DNA of 64,000 nt from Candidatus Bruticola sp. (GTDB lineage: Bacteria; Vulcanimicrobiota; Xenobia; Xenobiales; Xenobiaceae), in contig JBJEGC010000027.1 in assembly GCA_051874695.1 (NCBI GenBank), positions 18,582 through 82,581 of the forward strand, written 5' to 3'. The notes under the pieces were generated by a model, which was given only the letters and a program-made list of their open reading frames with translations, ran no database searches and was not told where the DNA came from. Shown in pieces: positions 40,490 through 49,129 of this stretch (within the stretch, counting starts at the first letter, position 1; every line of letters begins with the position of its first letter). A program made the position numbers and the translations under genes.

Positions 40490-41230
40490 ATGAATATGAG
40501 GTTTAACGGTTTGCGGTCTAACGCATCGAGGCAACGTGGCTTTACTTTGGTGGAGCTGCTTATAGCCATAGCCATGTTTTCGCTCTTTACTTTAACTCTC
40601 ACGCAGCTGCTGATGGGTGGCATCGATGCCTTTAAGCGCGGTCAGGTTATTACAACTTTAAAGAGCGATGTGAAATCCTGTCTGACTCAAATTGAATCCG
40701 ATTTGCGTTTTGCCAACAGTCGGTCTTCTTTTACTGACCCTGTTTATACTTCTGGGAATCAGTCTTTGTCAGCTTCTTTCTACCGTTTTCCTGCCAGAGA
40801 TATTGACTGGACGGTTGACGGATCAACTTCCACTTATAAGGTGGATTATACTATTGATAAAGAGGGCGATACCTATGTGCTGAACTACGCTAAGAAAAGC
40901 GGTACTAAGTACAAGATGATTGATAATGTTATGCTCTCTACGGTGCCGGGCCAAGCTGGTACTTCTGGCAATTACAACAGTTACTTCCAGTGGGGACGCG
41001 TCAGTTATGGAAGCAATATTAATACCGTTCCCGAAGATGTAATGAATGTGCGCTTAACCAGCGGACGCTATTTGGGCAAGGAAATTCTGACCATGACCAT
41101 GTCTAGCGCAGTAGCTGTGCGCACTCCTGTAAGTTGTTCCAACATGAAAGCCAGCGGCGGTATCCGTACTCAGTCTGTTGAGCTTCTGCCTTTCGAAGTG
41201 AACCTGCGGGCCGGTTCTGTGTCGTTTTAA
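40490..41230 (+). CDS. Type IV minor pilin, PilW/GspJ-like
   Basis: RQRG|FTLVELLIA and LTQIESDLRFA. Confidence 0.87.
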   Translation: MNMRFNGLRSNASRQRGFTLVELLIAIAMFSLFTLTLTQLLMGGIDAFKRGQVITTLKSDVKSCLTQIESDLRFANSRSSFTDPVYTSGNQSLSASFYRFPARDIDWTVDGSTSTYKVDYTIDKEGDTYVLNYAKKSGTKYKMIDNVMLSTVPGQAGTSGNYNSYFQWGRVSYGSNINTVPEDVMNVRLTSGRYLGKEILTMTMSSAVAVRTPVSCSNMKASGGIRTQSVELLPFEVNLRAGSVSF

Positions 41231-41328
41231 GAAAAACTGTATGAAAAAGAGCTTGCTGGGGTAGTTCCTGATAGGCAGTATGAGAATATTGCTGGCATAG
41301 GGTAGCTGCCGTACAGGAGTGCGACAAG

Positions 41329-41378
41329 AAAAAAAAGGCGATACCTAGTTTTTATAACCAGGTATCGCCTTTTTTTTT
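41329..41378 (+). terminator. Rho-independent terminator of the pilin operon
   Basis: A8-GGCGATACCT...AGGTATCGCC-T9. Confidence 0.85.
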
Positions 41379-41654
41379 CTTCACAAAATGTTTGAATTTT
41401 ATTGGAAGTACATATGGCCCAGGAGCTTAACTATGTTCGAATAAAATATGGCAATTATATTTTTCTCGATACTATTGAGAAGGTTGAAAAGCGGCTGGTT
41501 ACAACGCAAGCTTTTATGTCTTTTATAAAGACAGCCCAAATAACAAAGTAATACTTAAATTATTTGAAACTATAAAAATATTACAGTTGAACACAGTTAC
41601 TTTGTGGAAGAAAATTTTTACTATGTAGATTTGAAGGAATTGTATTTAAGTTAT

Positions 41655-41688
41655 AAAGAGAGCCTGCCGAACCGGCAGGCTCTCTTTT
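41655..41688 (-). terminator. Terminator of the metal ABC operon
   Basis: AAAGAGAGCCTGCCG-AAC-CGGCAGGCTCTCTTT perfect stem. Confidence 0.8.
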
Positions 41689-41693
41689 GTCTA

Positions 41694-42497
41694 TTAGTTT
41701 GTCTGGCGCAAACGTTTTATTATCAGGGATATGACCAGAAATGAGCAAGTAACGGCTGTTATGGAAGCGCTGGTAGGTAAATCGTAACGGACGGAAAGGG
41801 CTACTCCTGTAAAGACCGAGGCTAAAGCGGAAATTAGGGAAGTAGCACAAACCCACCGCCAGCGGTGACTCAAGCATAAGCCGGTCAGCGGAGGTACAAT
41901 CAACATGGCAAAAACCAGCAGAGCACCGGCACTGTGTATAGCGACAGCTATAGCCAAACCTACTGTAAAGTAAAATAGCCAGTTCCAAAACTTCACATTA
42001 TACCCCAGAGCCTGAGCCATCATAGGATCGAATGAAGTCAGCATAAACTGTTTAAAAAACAGTGCACTTACGATCACAATAAAGGCCAGCGAACCTGTCA
42101 TTAGGTAAATGTCGGTTGAGGTAACGGCCAGCACGTTGCCGAAGAGCAGGCTGAGCATATCACTGTCAGCGTGAGGAGACAGGGCTATAAACAGTACTGC
42201 CGCCGCTCCGGCGGCAACATAAGCGCTGCCTATAAGTCCTTCGGAAGGGAGGCCCTGCCGATGATCTTTGGCAAAAAATGTCACACCTCCCAGCATAAGA
42301 ATAACTGCCCCCAAACTGCAGGGAATGTGGAGCAGACCGCTCATAGCAATACCGGCAGTAGCCAGCTGAGCGAGGGCCACTCCTACAAAGGTTATGCGGC
42401 GCAGTACAGTCAGTACTCCCAAATAGGCAGTCATTAAAGCGGTTAAAGAGGCCGAAAGCAGGGCTAAAGAAGTAAAATCTAAATTATCAATAGACAT
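41694..42497 (-). CDS. znuB: Zn/Mn ABC transporter permease
   Basis: LGVLTVLRR, LLFGNVL, SFDPMMA and GALLVFAMLIVP (ABC-3 family). Confidence 0.9.
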   Translation of the reverse strand: MSIDNLDFTSLALLSASLTALMTAYLGVLTVLRRITFVGVALAQLATAGIAMSGLLHIPCSLGAVILMLGGVTFFAKDHRQGLPSEGLIGSAYVAAGAAAVLFIALSPHADSDMLSLLFGNVLAVTSTDIYLMTGSLAFIVIVSALFFKQFMLTSFDPMMAQALGYNVKFWNWLFYFTVGLAIAVAIHSAGALLVFAMLIVPPLTGLCLSHRWRWVCATSLISALASVFTGVALSVRYDLPTSASITAVTCSFLVISLIIKRLRQTN

Positions 42498-42536
42498 ATT
42501 TTCTCTCAGAAAAAATAAGGCAGGGCCGATTTACGA

Positions 42537-43283
42537 TCATTTATTCCAATGGATGGGGCGTCCGAAAAGTTTGCTCAAATATTGAGAAGTAAATATTTCT
42601 TTAGGTTCGCCCCAACTGACGGTGCGGCGGCCGTTGCTATCGGCGTGAAAAATGCCGACAATTTGTGCATGTTCGGCTACTATCTCCAACATGTGGGTCA
42701 CGATAACTACTGTCATGCCTTGCTGATGCAACCGGGAGACTATTTCTAAAGTATCTTGGCTGGCTCCTAAGTCCATGCCGTTAGTCGGTTCGTCCAGAAG
42801 GAGCACTTGAGGCTTAGAAACTAGGGCCCGGGCCATAAGCACTCGTTGTAACTGGCCGCCGGAAAGGGCGCTGATGTGAGCATCGGAGCGGTCGGCCAAA
42901 TTTACCTGTTCCAAAGCTTCTTTTACGGCTTGGCGGTCTTCTGAGGAAGGGCGGAAGCGATAACCCATTTGGGCGTAACGCCCCATAAGTACAGTATCAA
43001 ATACGGAAAGGGGAAACGAAGTTTCTAAAGTTTGATGCTGGGGCATGTAGCCCAATCCTTCCAAACGACGTTGTTCTTGGCTTGAACGGTCAAAGAATTT
43101 AATTTGGCCGATTACAGGTTTTAGAGCTCCCACCAATCCTTTTAATAAAGTAGATTTGCCGACGCCGTTTGAGCCTACTAAGCCTATATATTTTCCTCTT
43201 TCCAAAGAAAAATTGAGCCCTTCCAATATGGGGCGGCCGCCGTAGCCTAAACTTACTTGGCTAAATTCTGCAAATGTAGCCAT
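42537..43283 (-). CDS. znuC: Zn/Mn ABC transporter ATPase
   Basis: GSNGVGKST, GYMPQ, LSGGQLQR and LLDEPT motifs. Confidence 0.9.
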   Translation of the reverse strand: MATFAEFSQVSLGYGGRPILEGLNFSLERGKYIGLVGSNGVGKSTLLKGLVGALKPVIGQIKFFDRSSQEQRRLEGLGYMPQHQTLETSFPLSVFDTVLMGRYAQMGYRFRPSSEDRQAVKEALEQVNLADRSDAHISALSGGQLQRVLMARALVSKPQVLLLDEPTNGMDLGASQDTLEIVSRLHQQGMTVVIVTHMLEIVAEHAQIVGIFHADSNGRRTVSWGEPKEIFTSQYLSKLFGRPIHWNK

Positions 43284-43284
43284 G

Positions 43285-44217
43285 TTATTTCAAAGCCTTA
43301 GCCAGTTGATTAACGTTATACTCCATCATATCTAAGTAGGTGGAAGTATTGGGCAAGCTTCCAGGCTGAATGGGCAGTTTCAAAGCGGAAGCTCCAGATT
43401 TCTGAGCGACAGAGTTAGGCAGGTTTTCAGGGTACCAAGGCTCAAAAACTATAACTTTAACTTTGGAGCCTTTCATTAGTTCAACCAGTTCATTGAGCTG
43501 GCGGCTGGAAGGAGATACGCCGGGTTTAGGTTCAATGTTGCCGCATACTTTTAAGCCGAAATGAGCGGCAAAGTAGCTCCAAGTGCTGTGGTAAGTAACA
43601 ATATTGCTGCCGGCATAAGGTTTTAATATAGCTTTCCAACGTTTGTCAGCCTGATCTATTTTATGCCAGTAAGCGCTGTAATTTTTATCGTAAATAGCCG
43701 AACCTTCCGGATCGAGACGTTTGAAGAAGGCGGTCATAGTTCTGGCTACATGTTTTACATTGGTGGGGTTGAGAGTGTAGTGAGGATTGCCGTCAGGGTG
43801 AGCGTCGCCGCGGGAGCGATCTACTTTGCCGCTCGGTTTGTCCATAACTTTAATGCCTGCGCTGGCTTCCAAAAAGTTGGGTTGTCCGGGCATAATTTTA
43901 GGATTGCGGGCGCTGCGCAGTAAACTGGGGGCCCAGCCTATTTCCAAAGAGAGACCGGTTTCAATAAAGGCATCGGCTTGCTGTAATGCACGCAGATAGC
44001 TGGGCTTAGTTTCGACAAAATGCGGATCCTGGCCACCTTTAGCTATACAGGTAACTTTCACGCGTGAGCCGCCTATCTGGCGGGCAATGTCGGCCAAATC
44101 GGGAGTAGTTACAGCTACATTTAAAGTTTTGTCGGCTAATACAGGCTGCGAAAACCAGAAAGCCGTGCATAGAGCTATTAAGAGAACGCACCAAACAGAA
44201 GTTTTAGACATAAACAA
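43285..44217 (-). CDS. znuA: Zn/Mn ABC substrate-binding protein (cluster A-I)
   Basis: Metal-ligand motifs QDPHF, HPDGNPHY, TYHSTWSY and EPKPG. Confidence 0.9.
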   Translation of the reverse strand: MFMSKTSVWCVLLIALCTAFWFSQPVLADKTLNVAVTTPDLADIARQIGGSRVKVTCIAKGGQDPHFVETKPSYLRALQQADAFIETGLSLEIGWAPSLLRSARNPKIMPGQPNFLEASAGIKVMDKPSGKVDRSRGDAHPDGNPHYTLNPTNVKHVARTMTAFFKRLDPEGSAIYDKNYSAYWHKIDQADKRWKAILKPYAGSNIVTYHSTWSYFAAHFGLKVCGNIEPKPGVSPSSRQLNELVELMKGSKVKVIVFEPWYPENLPNSVAQKSGASALKLPIQPGSLPNTSTYLDMMEYNVNQLAKALK

Positions 44218-44249
44218 TGCTCCTTTGCTTATTTACTGCCATAATAAAA

Positions 44250-45896
44250 TTAGTACTTGTGAGCGCCATGAGGACCGATAACTACGTTCCACTGCAGCAG
44301 CAATTCATTGTAGCTGGGCTGCCAGCTGGGCGAGGTCCGGTTATACTGCAGTTTTATAGAGTTCCATTCGTTGGCGATATATTCCGCAAAGGTGGAGACG
44401 CGCTTAGTTTTGCCTTCTTCGACTAAAGGCGATTCGGCTTCTTCGTAGCGTGCGCCTAAACGGAAGTTTCTGTTGCAGCGGTAGGCCAAATAAGTGTACC
44501 AGCCGCTTAAATTTTTATCTTTGATCATATGGTTGTGCTCGTGTGCTTCTGCCTCTTCAATATCTTCAGCTAGGTCTTGCTGATAAGACTGATGAACCTG
44601 CATATACTCACTGCGCCAGACAAATTCTCGGTAGGGATCGGAAGAAGGGCTCCATTTGAGAGTGAGGTCAGCTCCGTTAAGAGAAGAAGAGCGCACGTGC
44701 TCACTATCTATAGAAGAACTGGCGTGGGAAAGTCCCAAAGTTAAAGTTGTGTCATCGTTGAGCTCAGCCATATTTTCCCAGCGGGCGCTGAACATAGGGT
44801 TATGCTTTCCTTCATTGGGGAAGAGAGCGAATTCTTCCTCGCCTTCAGCCTCTTCATCGTGGTGAGAGTGGCCTCCGGTACGGCTGGTTACTGAAGCGGA
44901 AACTTTTGAGTACCACGGAGTGGGCAGCAGCCAAGACAGCTCAACCCCTGGAGTAGACAATCCTTCATCGCCCAAAAATTCAGTATAGGGAAGAGGGCGA
45001 TCTATTTGCGGCAAAGCGTGAGTATGTGTGGAATTTAAAGCACCAAATTCAGTGCGCATCTTTCCGGCGCGCAATTGTAGACCGTGGCTCAGCCCCATAT
45101 ATTGTATAAACGCTTCCTCTAATTCTGGGCCTTCATCTTGATGGGCGGCAAAAGTGGCCTCCAAACGGGTGGAAGGATCGACCGGAGCTGAAAGCTGCAG
45201 CTCGGCTTCCTGAATAAAAAAGCTGTTTTTAGTTGAGCTGTCCTCTTGTCCGCCCAATTGGCCTCCTCCCAAGAGAACTAAAGAAATATTGGGGTTCATG
45301 TCGGGCTGCTGTCCGCTGGCTTGGGCGGTGGCTTCTTGGGGAGCTTCGGCTGCTGAAGGAGGTTCAGGCCCTAAATCTTCTGTTTCACCATCGTCAGCTT
45401 CGGCATCGGTGGCCAATTCAACAGGAGTGTCAGAGCCGTTGAGGGCGTTATTTTCAGTTTGTTTTTTCTCAATGGTATTAGCGGCCGTGTCTTGATTAAT
45501 TGAACGGCTTGTTTCAGCAGTATCGGCTACAATTTCAGTTTGGAATTGCTCATCCGCCTGCTTGGCTGTAACTTGACCGCGGCGCATTTCATCAAGTTGA
45601 GAGCGCATTTCATCTATCTGAGCTTGCTGCTTTTCGATTAATTTTGATTGAGCTTCCAGTAAACGCTGCTGTTTTTGAAAAAGTTCCTGCAGCTCGCCTA
45701 ACGATTGAGGAGAAGCTTCGGCGGTGGGAGCAGAGTCATTTGAGTTTTGTGCCTGATCTGTGGCGTTTAGAGAAGCTGTAGGGCGGCCGCCTTCGGCGGA
45801 GTCAGTCGTTCCGGCCTGAGCTGGAAGGGACAAAGGGCCTGTCAGAGCAGCACCGAGCAGACCAATACCCAAAAGGTGCAGGTGTAGTTTATGCAA
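44250..45896 (-). CDS. Putative metal-regulated outer-membrane beta-barrel (porin) with coiled coil and His/acidic loops
   Basis: Signal peptide, coiled coil, MNPNISL, EAELQLSAPVDP, FGALNSTHTHAL, HSHHDEE, HEHNH, C-terminal GPHGAHKY; AGGAGA RBS. Confidence 0.8.
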   Translation of the reverse strand: MHKLHLHLLGIGLLGAALTGPLSLPAQAGTTDSAEGGRPTASLNATDQAQNSNDSAPTAEASPQSLGELQELFQKQQRLLEAQSKLIEKQQAQIDEMRSQLDEMRRGQVTAKQADEQFQTEIVADTAETSRSINQDTAANTIEKKQTENNALNGSDTPVELATDAEADDGETEDLGPEPPSAAEAPQEATAQASGQQPDMNPNISLVLLGGGQLGGQEDSSTKNSFFIQEAELQLSAPVDPSTRLEATFAAHQDEGPELEEAFIQYMGLSHGLQLRAGKMRTEFGALNSTHTHALPQIDRPLPYTEFLGDEGLSTPGVELSWLLPTPWYSKVSASVTSRTGGHSHHDEEAEGEEEFALFPNEGKHNPMFSARWENMAELNDDTTLTLGLSHASSSIDSEHVRSSSLNGADLTLKWSPSSDPYREFVWRSEYMQVHQSYQQDLAEDIEEAEAHEHNHMIKDKNLSGWYTYLAYRCNRNFRLGARYEEAESPLVEEGKTKRVSTFAEYIANEWNSIKLQYNRTSPSWQPSYNELLLQWNVVIGPHGAHKY

Positions 45897-45901
45897 TTCG
45901 A

Positions 45902-45966
45902 TTCTCCTATTTTCGGCTTATAGAAAAAGAGTTGTATATAGTTAAATTGCAGGGCCGAAAGGAGAA
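45902..45966 (-). promoter_or_regulatory. SD-sequestering stem-loop for the porin gene
   Basis: mRNA UUCUCCUUUCGGC (45966-45954) pairs with GCCGAAA-aua-GGAGAA (45917-45902), which contains the SD. Confidence 0.7.
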
Positions 45967-46367
45967 GGGGGAGAGCGTCCTGTTTGTGAGACAGTGCCTA
46001 GACTAAGGTGGAAATAGCTATAATACTCTGCCGGTTCATGCTGCTGAGCGTTGGGGTAAGGAGGCAAAATAAGGCAATCATTTTGACCCAGCTGAGTAAT
46101 AATCTGGCAAGAAGAACAGTCGCCTTCTTGAGCGGCAGAAGCGCTTTCTAAGTGGATGAAACGCTCGGCACAGTGACAGAAAGCGGCCCGATCAAAAAAC
46201 TTAATTCGATAGCAGCGGGCCGCTTCAGAAGAAAAGATATGGCTACCGTGTGGATGCAGCCAGAGCGCCCCTTGAATCGGCACAAAGAAAAAAAGCAGCA
46301 GCAAACAGATAGTTCCCAAAGAACCGAGCTTATTTGCACTGTTATTTTGGTGCCGCGTCTGTAACAT
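45942..46367 (-). CDS. DUF2946-like leader protein (signal/TM, HxH, CxxC, C-terminal RSPP)
   Basis: Hydrophobic N-terminal segment, HPHGSH, CSSC and TGRSPPS near the C-terminus; directly upstream of the metal-uptake operon. Start at 46367 or 46388. Confidence 0.75.
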   Translation of the reverse strand: MLQTRHQNNSANKLGSLGTICLLLLFFFVPIQGALWLHPHGSHIFSSEAARCYRIKFFDRAAFCHCAERFIHLESASAAQEGDCSSCQIITQLGQNDCLILPPYPNAQQHEPAEYYSYFHLSLGTVSQTGRSPPSPFGPAI

Positions 46368-46440
46368 ATAGAATAAGTATCGAAGCAACTACAGGTAATT
46401 CTAGGATTGGCCCATTATAGTTCAGCCTTTTTTGTTCGTC

Positions 46441-46466
46441 AATGATAATGAAAAATCATCAACATT
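46441..46466. promoter_or_regulatory. Possible Fur/Zur-family operator
   Basis: Imperfect palindrome AATGATAATGAAAAATCATCAACATT resembling Fur/Zur boxes, upstream of the metal-uptake operon. Confidence 0.45.
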
Positions 46467-46585
46467 AAGCAAAGAAGTTCTCTGGCAGCTCGATTCAGAT
46501 TTACTACATAGTATATCTAAAATTTTGTGCAAAAAATGGCCTTTTTCTGTAGGGTAAAAGCATTTAAATATTAAATAATAGGCCT

Positions 46586-47836
46586 ATGAAGACTGTAGCA
46601 ATGTTGTTAGCCGGCGGGGAGGGCTCACGACTCACCGTACTCTCTGAAAAGAGGGCTAAGCCCGCTGTTCCTTTTGCCGGGAAGTTTCGTATCATTGATT
46701 TTACCTTGTCGAACTGTGTAAACAGCGGCATCAACACTGTAGGAGTGCTTACTCAATATCGCCCCCACAGCCTTTCCGACCATATCGGTATCGGTAAGCC
46801 TTGGAATCTAGATCGTAACCGGGGCGGAGTGCGCATTCTGCCTCCTTATCAAGAGCGCGGAGGACAGCATTGGTATGCAGGCACAGCCGATGCTATCTAC
46901 CAAAATCTTGGTTTTATTGAGAGCAATAACGCCGATTTGGTGCTTATTCTCTCTGGCGATCATATCTATAAAATGGACTATAACGCCATGATTGCCGCCC
47001 ATGTCGCCAACCACGCCGATCTAACCGTGGCTGTTATGCCTGTGCCTATCGAAGAGACGCACCGTTTCGGCATTATGGTAGTAGATGGCGAGGGGCGCAT
47101 TACTGAATTTTACGAGAAGCCCAAAGAGCGCGATAAAGGTAATTTGGCCTCTATGGGTATTTACATTTTTAATGCCGACGTTTTAGCGGAGCGGCTCAAA
47201 GAAGATCCGGGCGTCAAGGTCGATTTTGGCAAAGATATTATACCTTATATGGTGGAGCGTGGTGATCGCGTATTCAGCTATCGCTTTGAAGGCTACTGGG
47301 TCGACGTCGGTACCATCGATTCTTACTGGAATACTAATTTAGAACTTCTCAAAGATGTTCATGGTCTCGACCTGTACTCTAATAAGTTCCCGATTATGAC
47401 TCTTTCTGAAGAGCGTCCGGCCGTAAAAATTGGTCCGCAGGCTAAAGTAGAAGGCAGTTTGCTATCTAATGGTTGTGTAATTAGGGGTACTGTTATTAAC
47501 AGTGTGCTCTCTCCAGGTGTTTATGTCAGCCCTGGAGCTGTAGTTATGAATTCTGTTTTAATGAACGATACTTGGGTTGGCCCCGGAGCCCGTCTGGATA
47601 AGTTGGTGCTCGACAAGCGAGTCGTTGTGGGAGCCGGAGCACAGGTCGGCGTTGGTGATGAGAGTGTGGCCAATGAAGCTATGCCCGATAAGCTTTTTGC
47701 CGGTATTACTGTGGTAGGCAAAGATTCAATAATCCCCGAGGGAGCTAAAATCGGCCGCAATGTGCTTATAGGCATCAACAAAGACGAACAAGATTATCCC
47801 GAAGACAGAATCGTAGGCGACGGCCAGAGCATTTAG
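46586..47836 (+). CDS. glgC: Glucose-1-phosphate adenylyltransferase
   Basis: [40 protein letters not shown] and YWVDVGT motifs. Confidence 0.95.
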
Positions 47837-47866: not shown

Positions 47867-49129
47867 ATGTCTAATACATTAGCAATGATTATGGCTGGAG
47901 GGGGCAGTCCCGGCCTAAGCGTGCTTACCGAAGTTCGCGCCGATGCTGCTGTAGAGTTCGCCGGTAAGTTCTGCCTGATCGATTTTCCACTCTCCAACTG
48001 CGTAAACTCCGACATTTACAATGTGGCCGTTCTGACTCAGTACCGCCCGCAAACGCTCAATACTCATATCGGAACTGGTACTCCTTGGGATCTGGACCTA
48101 AATCAGGGTGGCGTGCATTTGCTGCAGCCCTACAAAGGCGGAATCTACGGAGATTGGCAAAAGGGCACAGCCGATGCCGTGCGCCGCAATCTCGATTTTA
48201 TAATGGCGCAAAGTGAAGAGTACGTTTTAATTTTGTCCGGTGATCACATCTACTCGATGGATTACCGTCCCTTAATTAATGCTCACATTGCCAATAATGC
48301 CGATATTACCATTTGTGTGCGCAATGTGAACAGTTTTGACGCTCATCGTTACGGAATGTTGTTAGTCAACAATGATCAGCGAGTATACGGCTACGAAGAA
48401 AAGCCGAAACGCTCTCGCAGTTGTTTGGCCAATATGGGCATTTACGTTTTCCGTAAAGATTTCTTAGTGAAAATTTTAACCGAACATGAAATGAATGACT
48501 TCGGACGCGATCTGCTTCCTTACGTAATCAACAATCATTATCGCGTGTTCAGTTACTATTTCCCCGGTTACTGGGCCGATGTCGGCAATATTCAGTCGTA
48601 TTGGGAAGCCAATATGAGCTTGCTGGCTGAGGAACCTGCTCTCGATCTTTATGATAACGGCTGGGTAATTCATACCCGTTCTATGGATCAGGCTCCTGTG
48701 CGTATTGGCAATCAGGCTAAAGTTGCTGACAATATCCTTTCTAACGGATGTCAGATAGACGGCGAAGTCTGTCGCAGTGTTATCTCTTCGGGGGTCATTA
48801 TCGAAGAGGGAGCAGTAGTAAAAAATAGCATTCTCATGCGCGGCGTCTATGTGAAAAGAGGCTGTGTGATTGACCGCTGTATTATCGATTGTGACTGCGT
48901 AATTGGTGAGAACTGTCAAGTTGGCACCGGTGAAGATATTGTGCCTAATAATGAAATGCCGGGCGTTTTGAATACAGGTCTTACCGTTATAGGACGAGGT
49001 CGCACTTTAGCTCCTGGAACTGTAGTCGGACGCTCAGTAATTATTCACCCTTCTCACGGTGTGCGGCGTGCTCCCGAAATAACCGGTGAAATCGCCAGTG
49101 GAGCCAGCATAGGCGAAGCCGAGCGTTAG
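47867..49129 (+). CDS. glgD: ADP-glucose pyrophosphorylase paralog, probable non-catalytic GlgD-like subunit
   Basis: GlgC-like throughout, but GEGSRL is replaced by GGSPGL and RAKPAV by RADAAV. Confidence 0.75.

What the first reader, a model, noticed from the sequence alone, without database searches (positions are those of the whole stretch)
45897..46388. RSPP ribosome-arrest leader with anti-SD hairpin controlling a Zn/Mn porin-ABC operon
Seen: the leader ORF has an export-signal-like segment, HPHGSH, CHC, CSSC and C-terminal GRSPP (RSPP codons 45977-45966). The 13 nt beginning at the last Pro codon (UUCUCCUUUCGGC) are complementary, with a 3-nt bulge, to GCCGAAA-aua-GGAGAA, which covers the porin SD 45 nt past the leader stop. 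Established: DUF2946 proteins CutF (Rhodobacter) and CruR (Bordetella) use CxxC plus RAPP-type stalling to control downstream copper genes. Inference: a ribosome stalled at RSPP would cover the 5' arm and free the SD, giving metal-responsive translation of porin-znuA-znuC-znuB. This would extend the mechanism to a Zn/Mn ABC importer.
Basis: partly seen in the sequence, partly recalled or inferred. Interest (0 to 1): 0.82.

Follow-up and report, generated by a model that had tools for sequence, protein, structure and literature searches.

The report
Ribosome-arrest leader gating a metal importer
A small exported Cys/His-rich protein ending in a known ribosome-stalling motif sits in front of a porin and zinc-type ABC importer operon, placed so that a stalled ribosome would uncover the porin's ribosome-binding site; this extends a copper-sensing leader mechanism to a metal importer in an uncultured gut bacterium.

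Summary
The leader (best start ATG 46367; 141 aa, minus strand) has a hydrophobic N-terminus, HPH, CSSC and C-terminal GRSPP. The 13 nt after the arrest site pair with the porin Shine-Dalgarno region.

In this window alone the stem is only modestly unusual (z about -2; about 2-4% of geometry-matched genomic windows pair as well). The comparative evidence is strong:
- Leader-like ORFs precede the porin in 15 of 17 related genomes that hold the porin.
- All 19 family sequences keep CxxC and R[AS]PP 2-7 residues before the stop.
- The spacer between the two motifs is 43 residues in 18 of 19, although its sequence is poorly conserved.
- In 15 of 15 loci the minimum-energy fold pairs the codons at or after the arrest site with the porin SD, using different, covarying sequences.
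- RAPP-like motifs are otherwise absent from this genome's long ORFs (0 observed, about 32 expected).

It resembles DUF2946/CruR/CutF leaders, but no member reaches the Pfam cut-off. The metal (probably zinc) and the polarity (probably metal relieves arrest) are inferred. I rate it a new member of a known kind, of moderate interest.

The parts
46443..46461 (-). Fur-family-box-like palindrome (TGATGAT-N5-ATTATCA) next to the -35 hexamer; candidate metalloregulator operator
   Evidence: Conserved block in the upstream alignment of 10 loci. No other genome site within 3 mismatches. One Fur-family gene in the genome. The likeness to Fur/Zur boxes is recalled, not tested.
46414..46442 (-). Sigma-70-type promoter TTGACG-17-TATAAT (11 of 12 matches)
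   Evidence: The -35/-10 block is conserved in relatives. A consensus match only; the transcription start was not mapped.
45942..46367 (-). Leader ORF, 141 aa plus stop (the alternative TTG at 46388 gives 148 aa)
   Evidence: The ATG start aligns with the starts of 9 homologues. Identical to P0001.
46257..46337 (-). Residues 11-37: hydrophobic N-terminal helix (export signal or membrane anchor)
   Evidence: AlphaFold2 helix 11-37, the only confident part of the model. Hydrophobic in all homologues. No signal-peptide predictor was run.
46248..46256 (-). H38-P39-H40 (H-x-H), invariant His pair
   Evidence: H38 and H40 are invariant columns in the 19-sequence alignment. H-x-H is found by regex in 18 of 19.
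46107..46118 (-). C84-S-S-C87 (CxxC) candidate metal-binding motif
   Evidence: Invariant C84 and C87 in 19 of 19.
45966..45977 (-). R131-S-P-P134 arrest motif. [quoted passage not shown]
   Evidence: R, P and P invariant in 19 of 19. P/A-site assignment is by analogy with ApdA/ApdP structures and the CruR toeprint.
45954..45966 (-). 5' arm (anti-SD) UUCUCCUUUCGGC, inside the leader's last codons, +5 to +17 from the first P-site base
45902..45917 (-). 3' arm GCCGAAA-AUA-GGAGAA, including the porin SD GGAG (45907..45904)
   Evidence: 4 of 4 SD bases paired.
44250..45896 (-). Porin-like outer-membrane protein, 548 aa, TTG start, signal-peptide-like N-terminus, coiled-coil-like Q-rich stretch, His-rich loops
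   Evidence: Weak Porin_O_P match (E 0.0019, below cut-off) and BBP2 match. 111 homologues at E<=1e-5, mostly unnamed, a few carrying Porin_O_P or BBP2.
43285..44217 (-). Cluster A-I metal-binding protein (ZnuA family)
   Evidence: Pfam ZnuA 2.5e-58. The closest solved chain is the Synechocystis zinc-binding ZnuA 1pq4, with the DPH, NPH and YH motifs aligned. NCBIfam AztC and MntC match below cut-off.
42537..43283 (-). ABC ATPase (ZnuC/AztA-like)
   Evidence: Pfam ABC_tran 2.5e-31. NCBIfam AztA 1.1e-55, below cut-off.
41694..42497 (-). ABC-3 permease (ZnuB/AztB-like)
   Evidence: Pfam ABC-3 1.1e-42. NCBIfam AztB matches below cut-off.
41655..41687 (.). 15-bp GC-rich hairpin just after the permease stop; terminator-like, likely operon end
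   Evidence: The scan listed it on the + strand; its symmetry suggests it could act in both directions (inference).

Best explanation
The 141-aa ORF is a regulatory leader of the RAPP-type arrest-peptide class. It is a divergent relative, or at least a close analogue, of the DUF2946/CruR/CutF metal-sensing leaders.

Proposed sequence of events:
1. Its N-terminal hydrophobic segment targets the nascent chain for export.
2. A Cys/His-rich part (H-x-H, H-x-E, CxxC) lies a fixed 43 residues before R-S-P-P.
3. When the ribosome reaches RSP (P site) and Pro (A site), peptide-bond formation stalls.
4. The stalled ribosome sits on the next 13 nt. These would otherwise pair with the Shine-Dalgarno region of the porin gene 45 nt downstream.
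5. While the stall lasts, the SD is free, and the porin can be translated. Through coupling, polarity or mRNA stability, the ZnuABC-type importer behind it would follow.
6. When the leader is finished and the ribosome leaves, the hairpin re-forms and initiation is blocked.

I infer that the stall duration is set by metal binding to the nascent Cys/His part. Because the cargo is an importer behind a Fur-box-like promoter, the likelier polarity is that of CruR: the metal (most likely Zn) relieves the arrest and shuts the operon down.

Shown here: the anatomy, its conservation, the covariation, and the avoidance of the motif elsewhere in the genome.

Inferred: the stalling itself, the metal response, the identity of the metal, and the polarity.
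For: **Distribution**
- The single protein finds homologues in 10 of 61 related genomes. The profile finds 12 of 401 genomes of the phylum; one of these (G272) is spurious.
- A regex scan of the frames upstream of the porin found four more leaders that the profile missed: G011, G016, G017 and G018.
- Of the 17 of 19 family genomes that hold the porin, 15 have the leader. One is cut by a contig end (G003) and one lacks the leader (G010).

**Protein features**
- In 19 sequences C84, C87, R131, P133, P134, H38 and H40 are invariant columns.
- R[AS]PP lies 2-7 residues before the stop in 19 of 19.
- The CxxC-to-R spacer is 43 residues in 18 of 19 and 45 in one, although its sequence is poorly conserved.

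**The motif is a plausible arrest site**
- RSPP is a partially permissive variant, was found in arrest sequences from random screens, and is under-represented in proteomes.
- In this genome RAPP, RSPP, RGPP, RAGP and RDPP occur 0 times in 1,845 ORFs of 150 aa or more. Expected counts are 6.8, 5.9, 5.2, 10.8 and 3.8.
- The leader is the only ORF over 61 aa (searched range 50-220 aa) with R[AGS]PP in its last 15 residues.

**RNA structure**
- The MFE pairs the codons at or after the arrest site with the porin SD region in 10 of 10, 1 of 1 and 4 of 4 loci. This holds with spacers of 39 to 170 nt.
- Cognate duplexes are -15.8 to -19.3 kcal/mol in 11 of 11 loci. The 5' arm lies at -3 to +23 from the first P-site base, and 2-4 of the 4 SD bases are paired. 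The four GC-rich loci give -15.1 to -19.7.
- At least five unrelated arm sequences are used. Examples are UUCUCCUUUCGGC, CCUGUUUGCUU, UUCCGAUAUUUCA, CUCCCUUCC and GACCUCCUGA.
- Cognate pairs average -17.0 kcal/mol, against -10.8 (sd 4.1) for pairs from different groups.
- In six close relatives an 11-bp core has no broken pair. Two pairs show compensatory changes and two show G-U changes. One compensatory change alters the peptide (Ala to Thr).
- With the peptide kept and synonymous codons redrawn, only 0.8-5.8% of variants pair as well in 11 loci, and 4.3-15.1% in the four GC-rich loci.

**Context**
- The order leader, porin, ZnuA, ABC ATPase, permease is complete in the window and in 7 of 7 loci examined. 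A ZnuA-like frame follows the porin in 4 of 4 further loci.

**Mechanistic precedent**
- CruR arrest at RAPP keeps an importer operon on, and copper relieves it.
Against: - No experiment or expression data bear on stalling or metal response.
- The stem in this window alone is weak evidence: z -2.0, and 2-4% of random windows do as well.
- Whole-region fold z-scores are unremarkable in three loci: L002 -0.59, L005 -0.97 and L010 -0.58.
- In L056 the helix has an internal mismatch, and 15% of synonymous variants pair as well.
- Pro-Pro codons are partly anti-SD by nature, which inflates the baseline.
- No member reaches the Pfam DUF2946 cut-off. The window protein gives no hit at E<=10. Sub-threshold hits occur in 6 of 19, the best 18.6 bits against a cut-off of 23.7.
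- AlphaFold2 gives no confident fold beyond the N-terminal helix; mean pLDDT is 55.9. A metal site is therefore not modelled.
- One relative (G010) runs the porin from a similar promoter without any leader, so the module is dispensable.
- Only the porin SD is sequestered; control of ZnuABC itself is inferred.
- Ala-to-Ser in RAPP weakens arrest in ApdA and ApdP.
Confidence: 0.7

Rival explanations
1. Plain translational coupling. Any ribosome translating the last leader codons opens the hairpin, so porin translation simply follows leader translation. R[AS]PP only slows the ribosome a little, and no metal is sensed by the nascent chain. Metal control is purely transcriptional, through the Fur-like box.
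For: - The 5' arm lies in the coding sequence, and in six relatives it includes the stop codon. Any translating or terminating ribosome would therefore melt it.
- A conserved Fur-box-like operator overlaps the promoter.
- G010 regulates the porin without a leader.
- CutF's Pro-rich tail alone was not a strong arrest sequence.
Against: - It does not explain the invariance of R-x-P-P, of CxxC and of H-x-H, nor the 43-residue spacer kept through near-complete sequence turnover.
- It does not explain why a motif otherwise purged from the genome is kept here.
- A 141-aa exported Cys/His-rich protein is more than coupling needs.
Confidence: 0.12
2. CruR-type output. The stalled ribosome mainly blocks Rho (or an intrinsic attenuator) between the leader and the porin. 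Control is by transcription termination, and the SD hairpin is secondary.
For: - This is the published mechanism for the RAPP/CXXC protein CruR upstream of an importer.
- In five loci the spacer is 115-170 nt and strongly structured.
- In L009 a GC-rich hairpin is followed by a U-rich run.
Against: - In the window and in 9 other loci the spacer is only 39-58 nt, and no intrinsic terminator was found there.
- What is conserved and covaries across all spacer lengths is the pairing with the SD.
- The two outputs are not exclusive, because an untranslated porin mRNA would invite Rho.
Confidence: 0.08
3. The ORF encodes a stable exported or membrane-anchored metal-binding protein, such as a chaperone for the importer. 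The C-terminal motif and the hairpin have no regulatory role.
For: - The Cys/His motifs are conserved.
- The size of 119-156 aa is that of a small protein.
- The position is first in a metal-uptake operon.
Against: - No confident fold was predicted.
- The C-terminal 43 residues are conserved in length but not in sequence.
- The arrest motif sits 2-7 residues from the stop in 19 of 19.
- Codon choice after the motif is tuned to pair with the SD, even at the cost of an amino-acid change.
- Secreted CutF is rapidly degraded.
Confidence: 0.06
4. Chance complementarity next to a proline-rich tail, with no function.
For: The single-locus statistics are weak. Pro-Pro codons resemble an anti-SD.
Against: The pairing recurs in 15 of 15 loci with unrelated arm sequences, compensatory changes and biased synonymous codons.
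Confidence: 0.02

Closest known systems
CruR (Bp2923) of Bordetella pertussis, DUF2946 family (PMC9426467; abstract, section 10 and passages read)
   Same: [quoted passage not shown]
- About 45 residues between the two motifs, conserved in length.
- First gene of an operon for an outer-membrane metal importer.
- Arrest keeps the operon on, and the metal is proposed to relieve it.
   Different: - CruR acts through Rho-dependent termination in a long intergenic region, not through a hairpin over the SD.
- Its cargo is a TonB-dependent copper transporter, not a porin plus ZnuABC-type importer.
- The window protein has RSPP, extra invariant H-x-H and H-x-E motifs, and does not reach the Pfam DUF2946 cut-off.
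CutF of Rhodobacter capsulatus (PMC9973294: abstract, sections 10-12 and passages read; bioRxiv 10.1101/2025.02.05.636593: abstract read)
   Same: - An exported nascent sensor peptide.
- A C-terminal Pro-containing stall site.
- A stem-loop that shields the SD of the next gene and is opened during the stall.
[quoted passage not shown] The fourth, an N-terminal signal peptide, is only suggested, because no predictor was run.
   Different: - CutF has CxxxC and a proline-rich tail; RAPP is not named in the paper.
- Copper prolongs the stall and turns ON a detoxifying oxidase.
- Its stem-loop is described as lying in the intergenic region. Here the anti-SD arm is made of the codons directly after the arrest site, and the cargo is an importer.
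SecM-secA and the RAPP arrest peptides ApdA/ApdP (PMC10951233 and PMC12992588, passages read)
   Same: - An R-A/S-P-P core near the C-terminus of a small exported protein.
[quoted passage not shown]
- The stalled ribosome exposes the downstream gene's initiation region.
- RAPP-like motifs are purged from the rest of the proteome, as seen here.
   Different: Those peptides monitor Sec/YidC activity, and arrest is released by translocation force. Here the conserved Cys/His motifs and the metal-uptake cargo point to a metal as the signal.
CC2720, a DUF2946 gene heading the Zur-activated czrCBA-zntA operon of Caulobacter (PMC4176598, passages read)
   Same: A DUF2946-type first gene in an operon tied to zinc homeostasis.
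   Different: That operon is for efflux, and no leader function was assigned in the paper. Here the operon is an importer.

Membership tests
Pfam DUF2946 (PF11162; CruR family) | Match to the family HMM above the curated cut-off (23.7 bits) | tested here: not met
   The window protein gives no hit at E<=1 or E<=10, and the own genome gives none at E<=10. Of 19 family sequences scanned, 6 give sub-threshold DUF2946 hits: 2 of 10 (best E 0.061), P0007 (18.6 bits, E 0.0032, HMM positions 39-117 of 117), and 3 of 4 GC-rich members (E 0.054-0.71, HMM 8/9-117). DUF2946 is the only family that recurs. As a lead only, 8 of 30 language-model neighbours are clusters in which 12% of members carry PF11162. 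No profile-profile test was possible, because no bona fide DUF2946 sequences could be fetched.
Pfam DUF2946 (PF11162; CruR family) | Conserved CXXC motif | tested here: met
   19 of 19.
Pfam DUF2946 (PF11162; CruR family) | C-terminal RAPP motif a few residues before the stop | tested here: met
   R[AS]PP in 19 of 19, 2-7 residues before the stop: RAPP in 8 and RSPP in 11, including the window. Ser at position 2 is a partially permissive variant.
Pfam DUF2946 (PF11162; CruR family) | Fixed spacing of about 45 residues (within one or two) between CXXC and RAPP | tested here: met
   43 residues in 18 of 19 and 45 in 1.
Pfam DUF2946 (PF11162; CruR family) | N-terminal export signal or N-in/C-out anchor | tested here: inconclusive
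   A hydrophobic helix at residues 11-37 is modelled with high confidence, and hydrophobic cores are present in all homologues. No signal-peptide or topology predictor was available.
Pfam DUF2946 (PF11162; CruR family) | First gene of an operon for metal homeostasis | tested here: met
   The promoter lies directly upstream. Porin and ZnuABC-type genes follow.
RAPP-type ribosome arrest peptides | [quoted passage not shown] | not testable with these tools
   Needs in vitro translation and toeprinting. Indirect support: the motif is invariant here and absent from the rest of the genome's long ORFs, 0 observed against about 32 expected over five RAPP-like words.
CutF/SecM-type SD unmasking | An RNA helix sequesters the downstream SD, and its 5' arm lies within reach of the stalled ribosome | tested here: met
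   Seen in 15 of 15 loci. The arm lies at -3 to +23 from the first P-site base. Covariation is shown, and codon bias.
ZnuABC / cluster A-I metal ABC importers | ZnuA-family binding protein, ABC ATPase and ABC-3 permease in one operon | tested here: met
   Pfam ZnuA 2.5e-58, ABC_tran 2.5e-31 and ABC-3 1.1e-42.
ZnuABC / cluster A-I metal ABC importers | Zinc-type site (His at the third ligand position rather than Glu) | tested here: inconclusive
   The DPH, NPH and YH motifs align with those of the Synechocystis zinc-binding protein 1pq4 and of AdcA. That these are the ligands, and that Glu marks the Mn/Fe types, is recalled. The NCBIfam zinc (AztC, 129.8 bits) and manganese (MntC, 124 bits) models score alike, and both are below cut-off.

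The most novel reading that the evidence does not exclude
The leader is a zinc-sensing nascent chain. Its invariant His pair and Cys pair would form a Cys2His2-type site as the chain emerges, and zinc binding would pull the RSPP arrest open. That would close the SD hairpin and shut off a porin plus ZnuABC importer within one round of translation. If so, this would be the first arrest peptide shown to sense zinc and the first to gate an ABC importer. It would also combine CruR's polarity with SecM/CutF's RNA switch, in a lineage the Pfam model does not see.
Probability: 0.3. Interest if true: 0.7.

Novelty: new member of a known kind. Interest (0 to 1): 0.58.

Why it matters
Metal-sensing arrest leaders (CruR, CutF) are a recent discovery, and so far they are tied experimentally to copper. 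This locus would extend the principle in three ways:
- to a porin plus ZnuABC-type importer, probably for zinc;
- to a sequence branch the Pfam model does not reach;
- to an uncultured gut lineage, whose nearest named relative is Candidatus Bruticola (Vulcanimicrobiota).

The locus is also unusually readable. The anti-SD arm is made of the codons directly behind the arrest site, and 15 natural variants with different arm sequences act as a ready-made compensatory-mutation series. The fixed 43-residue spacer gives a measurable constraint on where the sensing motif sits when the ribosome stalls.

RAPP arrests work in E. coli cell-free systems, so the model can be tested without culturing the organism.

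The claim is tempered by earlier work. CutF-like and RAPP-containing leaders were already reported upstream of varied metal genes. A DUF2946 gene already heads a zinc efflux operon in Caulobacter.

Tried and rejected
- **Pfam and NCBIfam on the leader:** no family at the thresholds used.
- **Word-indexed protein search:** found only the window's own protein. The same search with P0007 found only itself.
- **Profile search of 1.84 billion representatives:** only 8 clusters at E<=0.001. The family is small, and the genomic contexts of P0005-P0008 could not be fetched.
- **Genome- and metagenome-contig scans:** 7 and 5 loci, all copies or near-copies of loci already held.
- **PF11162 in 301 genomes of the phylum:** none above the cut-off. 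Together, this left no true DUF2946 sequences for a profile-profile comparison.
- **G272 hit:** rejected as spurious. It is a 78-aa frame that shares only an 'HPH' stretch.
- **AlphaFold2 with 14 sequences:** low confidence outside the N-terminal helix. No fold search was made.
- **Rfam at E<=1 over 41000-47000:** nothing in the leader or spacer. The only matches were sub-threshold, at the terminator hairpins.
- **RNA sequencing runs:** no RNA holder was listed, so no reads were laid.
- **First IUPAC pattern for the operator:** missed the site because of a one-base length error. A script search replaced it.
- **One nucleotide alignment across all classes for pair counting:** abandoned. The helices are not in register between classes. 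Cognate versus non-cognate duplexes and RNAalifold on one class were used instead.
- **Intrinsic terminator between leader and porin in the window:** none found.

They may already list ZnuA-type or porin neighbours.
Full report
**1. What is in the sequence**

On the minus strand a near-consensus promoter, TTGACG-17-TATAAT (46442..46414), precedes an ORF that is open from TTG 46388. Its conserved start is ATG 46367, giving 141 aa.

The protein has these features:
- a basic N-terminus and a hydrophobic stretch, which is the only part AlphaFold2 models with confidence (helix 11-37);
- W-L-H-P-H-G-S-H;
- F-C-H-C;
- H-L-E;
- D-C-S-S-C (codons 46118..46107);
- the ending G-R-S-P-P-S-P-F-G-P-A-I, with RSPP at 45977..45966.

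The stop is at 45944..45942. Forty-five nt later a TTG (45896) opens a 548-aa porin-like protein. It matches Porin_O_P and BBP2 only weakly, below their cut-offs, and has 111 mostly unnamed homologues.

Three more genes follow:

| Gene | Coordinates | Pfam match |
|---|---|---|
| ZnuA-family binding protein | 44217..43285 | ZnuA, 2.5e-58 |
| ABC ATPase | 43283..42537 | ABC_tran, 2.5e-31 |
| ABC-3 permease | 42497..41694 | ABC-3, 1.1e-42 |

A strong hairpin lies at 41655..41687.

The 13 nt at 45966..45954 are complementary to 45917..45911 plus 45907..45902, with a 3-nt bulge. That stem is the MFE of the region.

**2. Is the stem more than chance?**

Taken alone, only modestly.
- The fold has z = -2.0, and 6 of 200 shuffles fold as well.
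- A duplex as good as -18.6 kcal/mol turns up in 2.0% of 20,000 geometry-matched windows of the same genome. Among windows whose 3' part contains GGAG the figure is 4.2%.
- Pro-Pro codons are partly anti-SD by nature.

The case has to rest on relatives.

**3. Relatives**

How the family was found:
- The single protein finds homologues in 10 of 61 related genomes, all in one family-level group.
- A profile finds 12 of 401 genomes of the phylum. One of these (G272) is spurious, and one (G006) is a new, very divergent member.
- The porin is present in 17 of 19 genomes of the family.
- Scanning the frames upstream of the porin turned up four further leader ORFs, in GC-rich genomes, that the profile had missed.

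Of the 17 genomes with the porin, 15 have the leader. One locus is cut by a contig end (G003). One (G010) has a similar promoter and a 5' leader region without any such ORF.

A profile search of 1.84 billion representative proteins gives only 8 clusters. Four of them are new, and all end in R[AS]PP.

Across 19 sequences:
- The invariant columns are the initiator Met, H38, H40, C84, C87, R131, P133 and P134. H72 and E74 are nearly invariant.
- R[AS]PP lies 2-7 residues before the stop in 19 of 19: RAPP in 8 and RSPP in 11.
- The stretch between CxxC and R is 43 residues in 18 of 19 and 45 in one. Its sequence is barely alignable.

A linker conserved in length but not in sequence, ending in an arrest motif, is what one expects of a nascent chain that must span the exit tunnel at the moment of arrest.

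**4. The motif in this genome**

In 1,845 ORFs of 150 aa or more (748,423 residues), RAPP, RSPP, RGPP, RAGP and RDPP each occur 0 times. Expected counts are 6.8, 5.9, 5.2, 10.8 and 3.8. Control words such as KAPP (6 observed, 6.8 expected) and AAPP (24 observed, 11.3 expected) are not depleted.

Among ORFs of 50-220 aa, the leader is the only one over 61 aa with R[AGS]PP in its last 15 residues.

This matches the published finding that RAPP-like words are purged from proteomes and retained near the C-termini of small exported regulatory proteins (PMC12992588, passages).

**5. The RNA switch in relatives**

- In 15 of 15 loci the MFE pairs the codons at or just after R[AS]PP with the SD region of the porin gene. 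This holds whether the spacer is 39-58 nt (10 loci) or 115-170 nt (5 loci). In the long-spacer loci the pairing closes a multi-branched structure.
- The best cognate duplex is -15.8 to -19.3 kcal/mol in 11 of 11 loci. The 5' arm lies between -3 and +23 of the first P-site base, and 2-4 of the 4 SD bases are paired. The four GC-rich loci give -15.1 to -19.7.
- The arm sequences differ completely between lineages. Examples are UUCUCCUUUCGGC, CCUGUUUGCUU, UUCCGAUAUUUCA, CUCCCUUCC and GACCUCCUGA. Each matches its own SD flank.
- Cognate duplexes average -17.0 kcal/mol. Pairings between different groups average -10.8 (sd 4.1).
- Within six close relatives an 11-bp core has no broken pair. Two pairs show compensatory double changes and two show G-U changes. 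One compensatory change converts the last residue from Ala to Thr, so the RNA pairing is conserved at the expense of the peptide.
- When the tail peptide is kept and synonymous codons are redrawn from the organism's usage, only 0.8-5.8% of variants pair as well in 11 loci. In the four GC-rich loci the figure is 4.3-15.1%.

Weak points:
- The whole-region z-scores of L002, L005 and L010 are unremarkable.
- L056 has an internal mismatch.
- The loci are related, so they amount to perhaps five to seven independent sequence classes rather than 15.

**6. Mechanism**

[quoted passage not shown] A toeprint places CruR the same way (PMC12992588).

A ribosome arrested here would have its P site on 45971..45969. 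From general knowledge of ribosome footprints, it would cover roughly the next 15 nt, which is nearly the whole 5' arm (45966..45954). The SD would then be free.

This is the logic of SecM-secA and of CutF-cutO. In the latter, a stem-loop shields the cutO SD and mutating its anti-SD makes CutF dispensable (PMC9973294).

I infer that the invariant His pair, the CxxC and the H-x-E form the sensor. Three observations argue that the metal relieves the arrest and turns the operon off, as proposed for CruR:
- The cargo is an importer.
- The promoter is overlapped by a conserved Fur-box-like palindrome (46461..46443).
- The genome has one Fur-family gene.

The opposite polarity is CutF's, where copper prolongs the stall. 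I put about two to one on the CruR-like polarity.

The metal is most likely zinc:
- The binding protein's closest solved relative is the Synechocystis zinc protein 1pq4.
- The three His-containing motifs align with it. That these are the ligands is recalled, not tested.

However, NCBIfam zinc and manganese models score alike and below cut-off, and the operator looks more like a generic Fur box. Mn or Fe is therefore not excluded.

**7. Comparison with known families**

By architecture this is a CruR/DUF2946-like leader. It has CXXC, a RAPP-like motif, a fixed spacer of about 45 residues, a likely export signal, and first position in a metal operon. Its output resembles that of CutF and SecM.

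By sequence it is not a Pfam DUF2946 member.
- No sequence reaches 23.7 bits.
- The window protein gives no hit at all.
- DUF2946 is nevertheless the only family that recurs. Six of 19 sequences give sub-threshold hits, several spanning nearly the whole model.
- Language-model neighbours include DUF2946-bearing clusters (a lead only).

I read it as a divergent branch of the same superfamily, or less likely a convergent analogue.

**8. Novelty**

The principle is known. The CutF paper lists 5,334 CutF-like proteins next to varied metal genes and says that not all are copper-specific. The EMBO J paper reports RAPP/RGPP proteins upstream of metal-homeostasis genes. A DUF2946 gene heads the Zur-activated zinc efflux operon of Caulobacter.

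What I did not find in print:
- The words zinc, ZnuA and porin, and 'ABC' or 'ABC transporter', occur 0 times in the main texts of the CutF, CruR and EMBO J papers.
- None of the 12 listed papers joins ZnuA with arrest-peptide terms.
- Of the 16 papers that hold 'DUF2946' (13 listed), only the Caulobacter paper concerns zinc by its title.

The organism is an uncultured gut bacterium. Relatives' records carry conflicting labels:
- Candidatus Riflebacteria and UBP9;
- Candidatus Bruticola, which NCBI taxonomy places in Vulcanimicrobiota, class Xenobia.

**9. Verdict**

This is a new member of a known kind, in a new cargo context. It is unusually clean material for testing how RAPP-type metal sensors couple to an RNA switch. 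I score its interest as moderate (0.58).

Noticed in passing
window 46443-46461 (-), and the equivalent blocks in L002-L009 and L035: An AT-rich palindrome, TGATGAT-N5-ATTATCA, abuts the -35 hexamer and is conserved across relatives. It is unique in the genome at up to 3 mismatches, and the genome has one Fur-family gene (G000:C20:181435-181764). It is probably the operator of a Zur/Fur/Mur-type repressor. The likeness to Fur boxes is recalled, not tested.
   Followed up: partly
L058 (G010:C124), upstream of the porin: One relative has the porin behind a TTGACA-17-TATAAT promoter, preceded by GATAATGATAATGATAAGC-like repeats, with a leader region of about 270 nt and no leader ORF. It is a natural leaderless variant. 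I did not check whether its SD is sequestered.
   Followed up: partly
L009 / L017 spacer between leader and porin (152 nt): The long spacer holds a GC-rich stem (CGCCGCCG...CGGCGGCG) followed by a U-rich run. This is a possible intrinsic attenuator nested inside the long-range anti-SD helix.
   Followed up: no
whole genome G000: RAPP, RSPP, RGPP, RAGP and RDPP are all absent from 1,845 ORFs of 150 aa or more, against about 32 expected in total. No other candidate RAPP-type leader (for example upstream of sec or yidC genes) was seen among ORFs of 50-220 aa.
   Followed up: yes
window about 46500-46545, between the leader promoter and the divergent gene at 46586 (+): A block (CCTACAGAAAAAGGC.CTTTTTTGCACAAAATTTT on the minus strand) is highly conserved across the genus in the upstream alignment. 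It may belong to the divergent gene's promoter or 5' UTR. Function unknown.
   Followed up: no
window 46586-47836 (+) and 47867-49129 (+): Two tandem paralogous ORFs of 416 and 420 aa look to me like glucose-1-phosphate adenylyltransferase (GlgC-type) pairs. I ran no family search on them.
   Followed up: no
window 44250-45896 (-), porin: The porin carries a Q-rich coiled-coil-like N-terminal region and His-rich loops (GGHSHHDEE, EAHEHNH), and ends in the conserved GPHGAHKY. The His-rich loops may bind metal at the outer membrane.
   Followed up: no
record titles of L013 and L014; name of P0010: Close relatives are labelled Candidatus Riflebacteria, UBP9 and Candidatus Bruticola (Vulcanimicrobiota) in different records. 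The public labels for this lineage disagree.
   Followed up: partly
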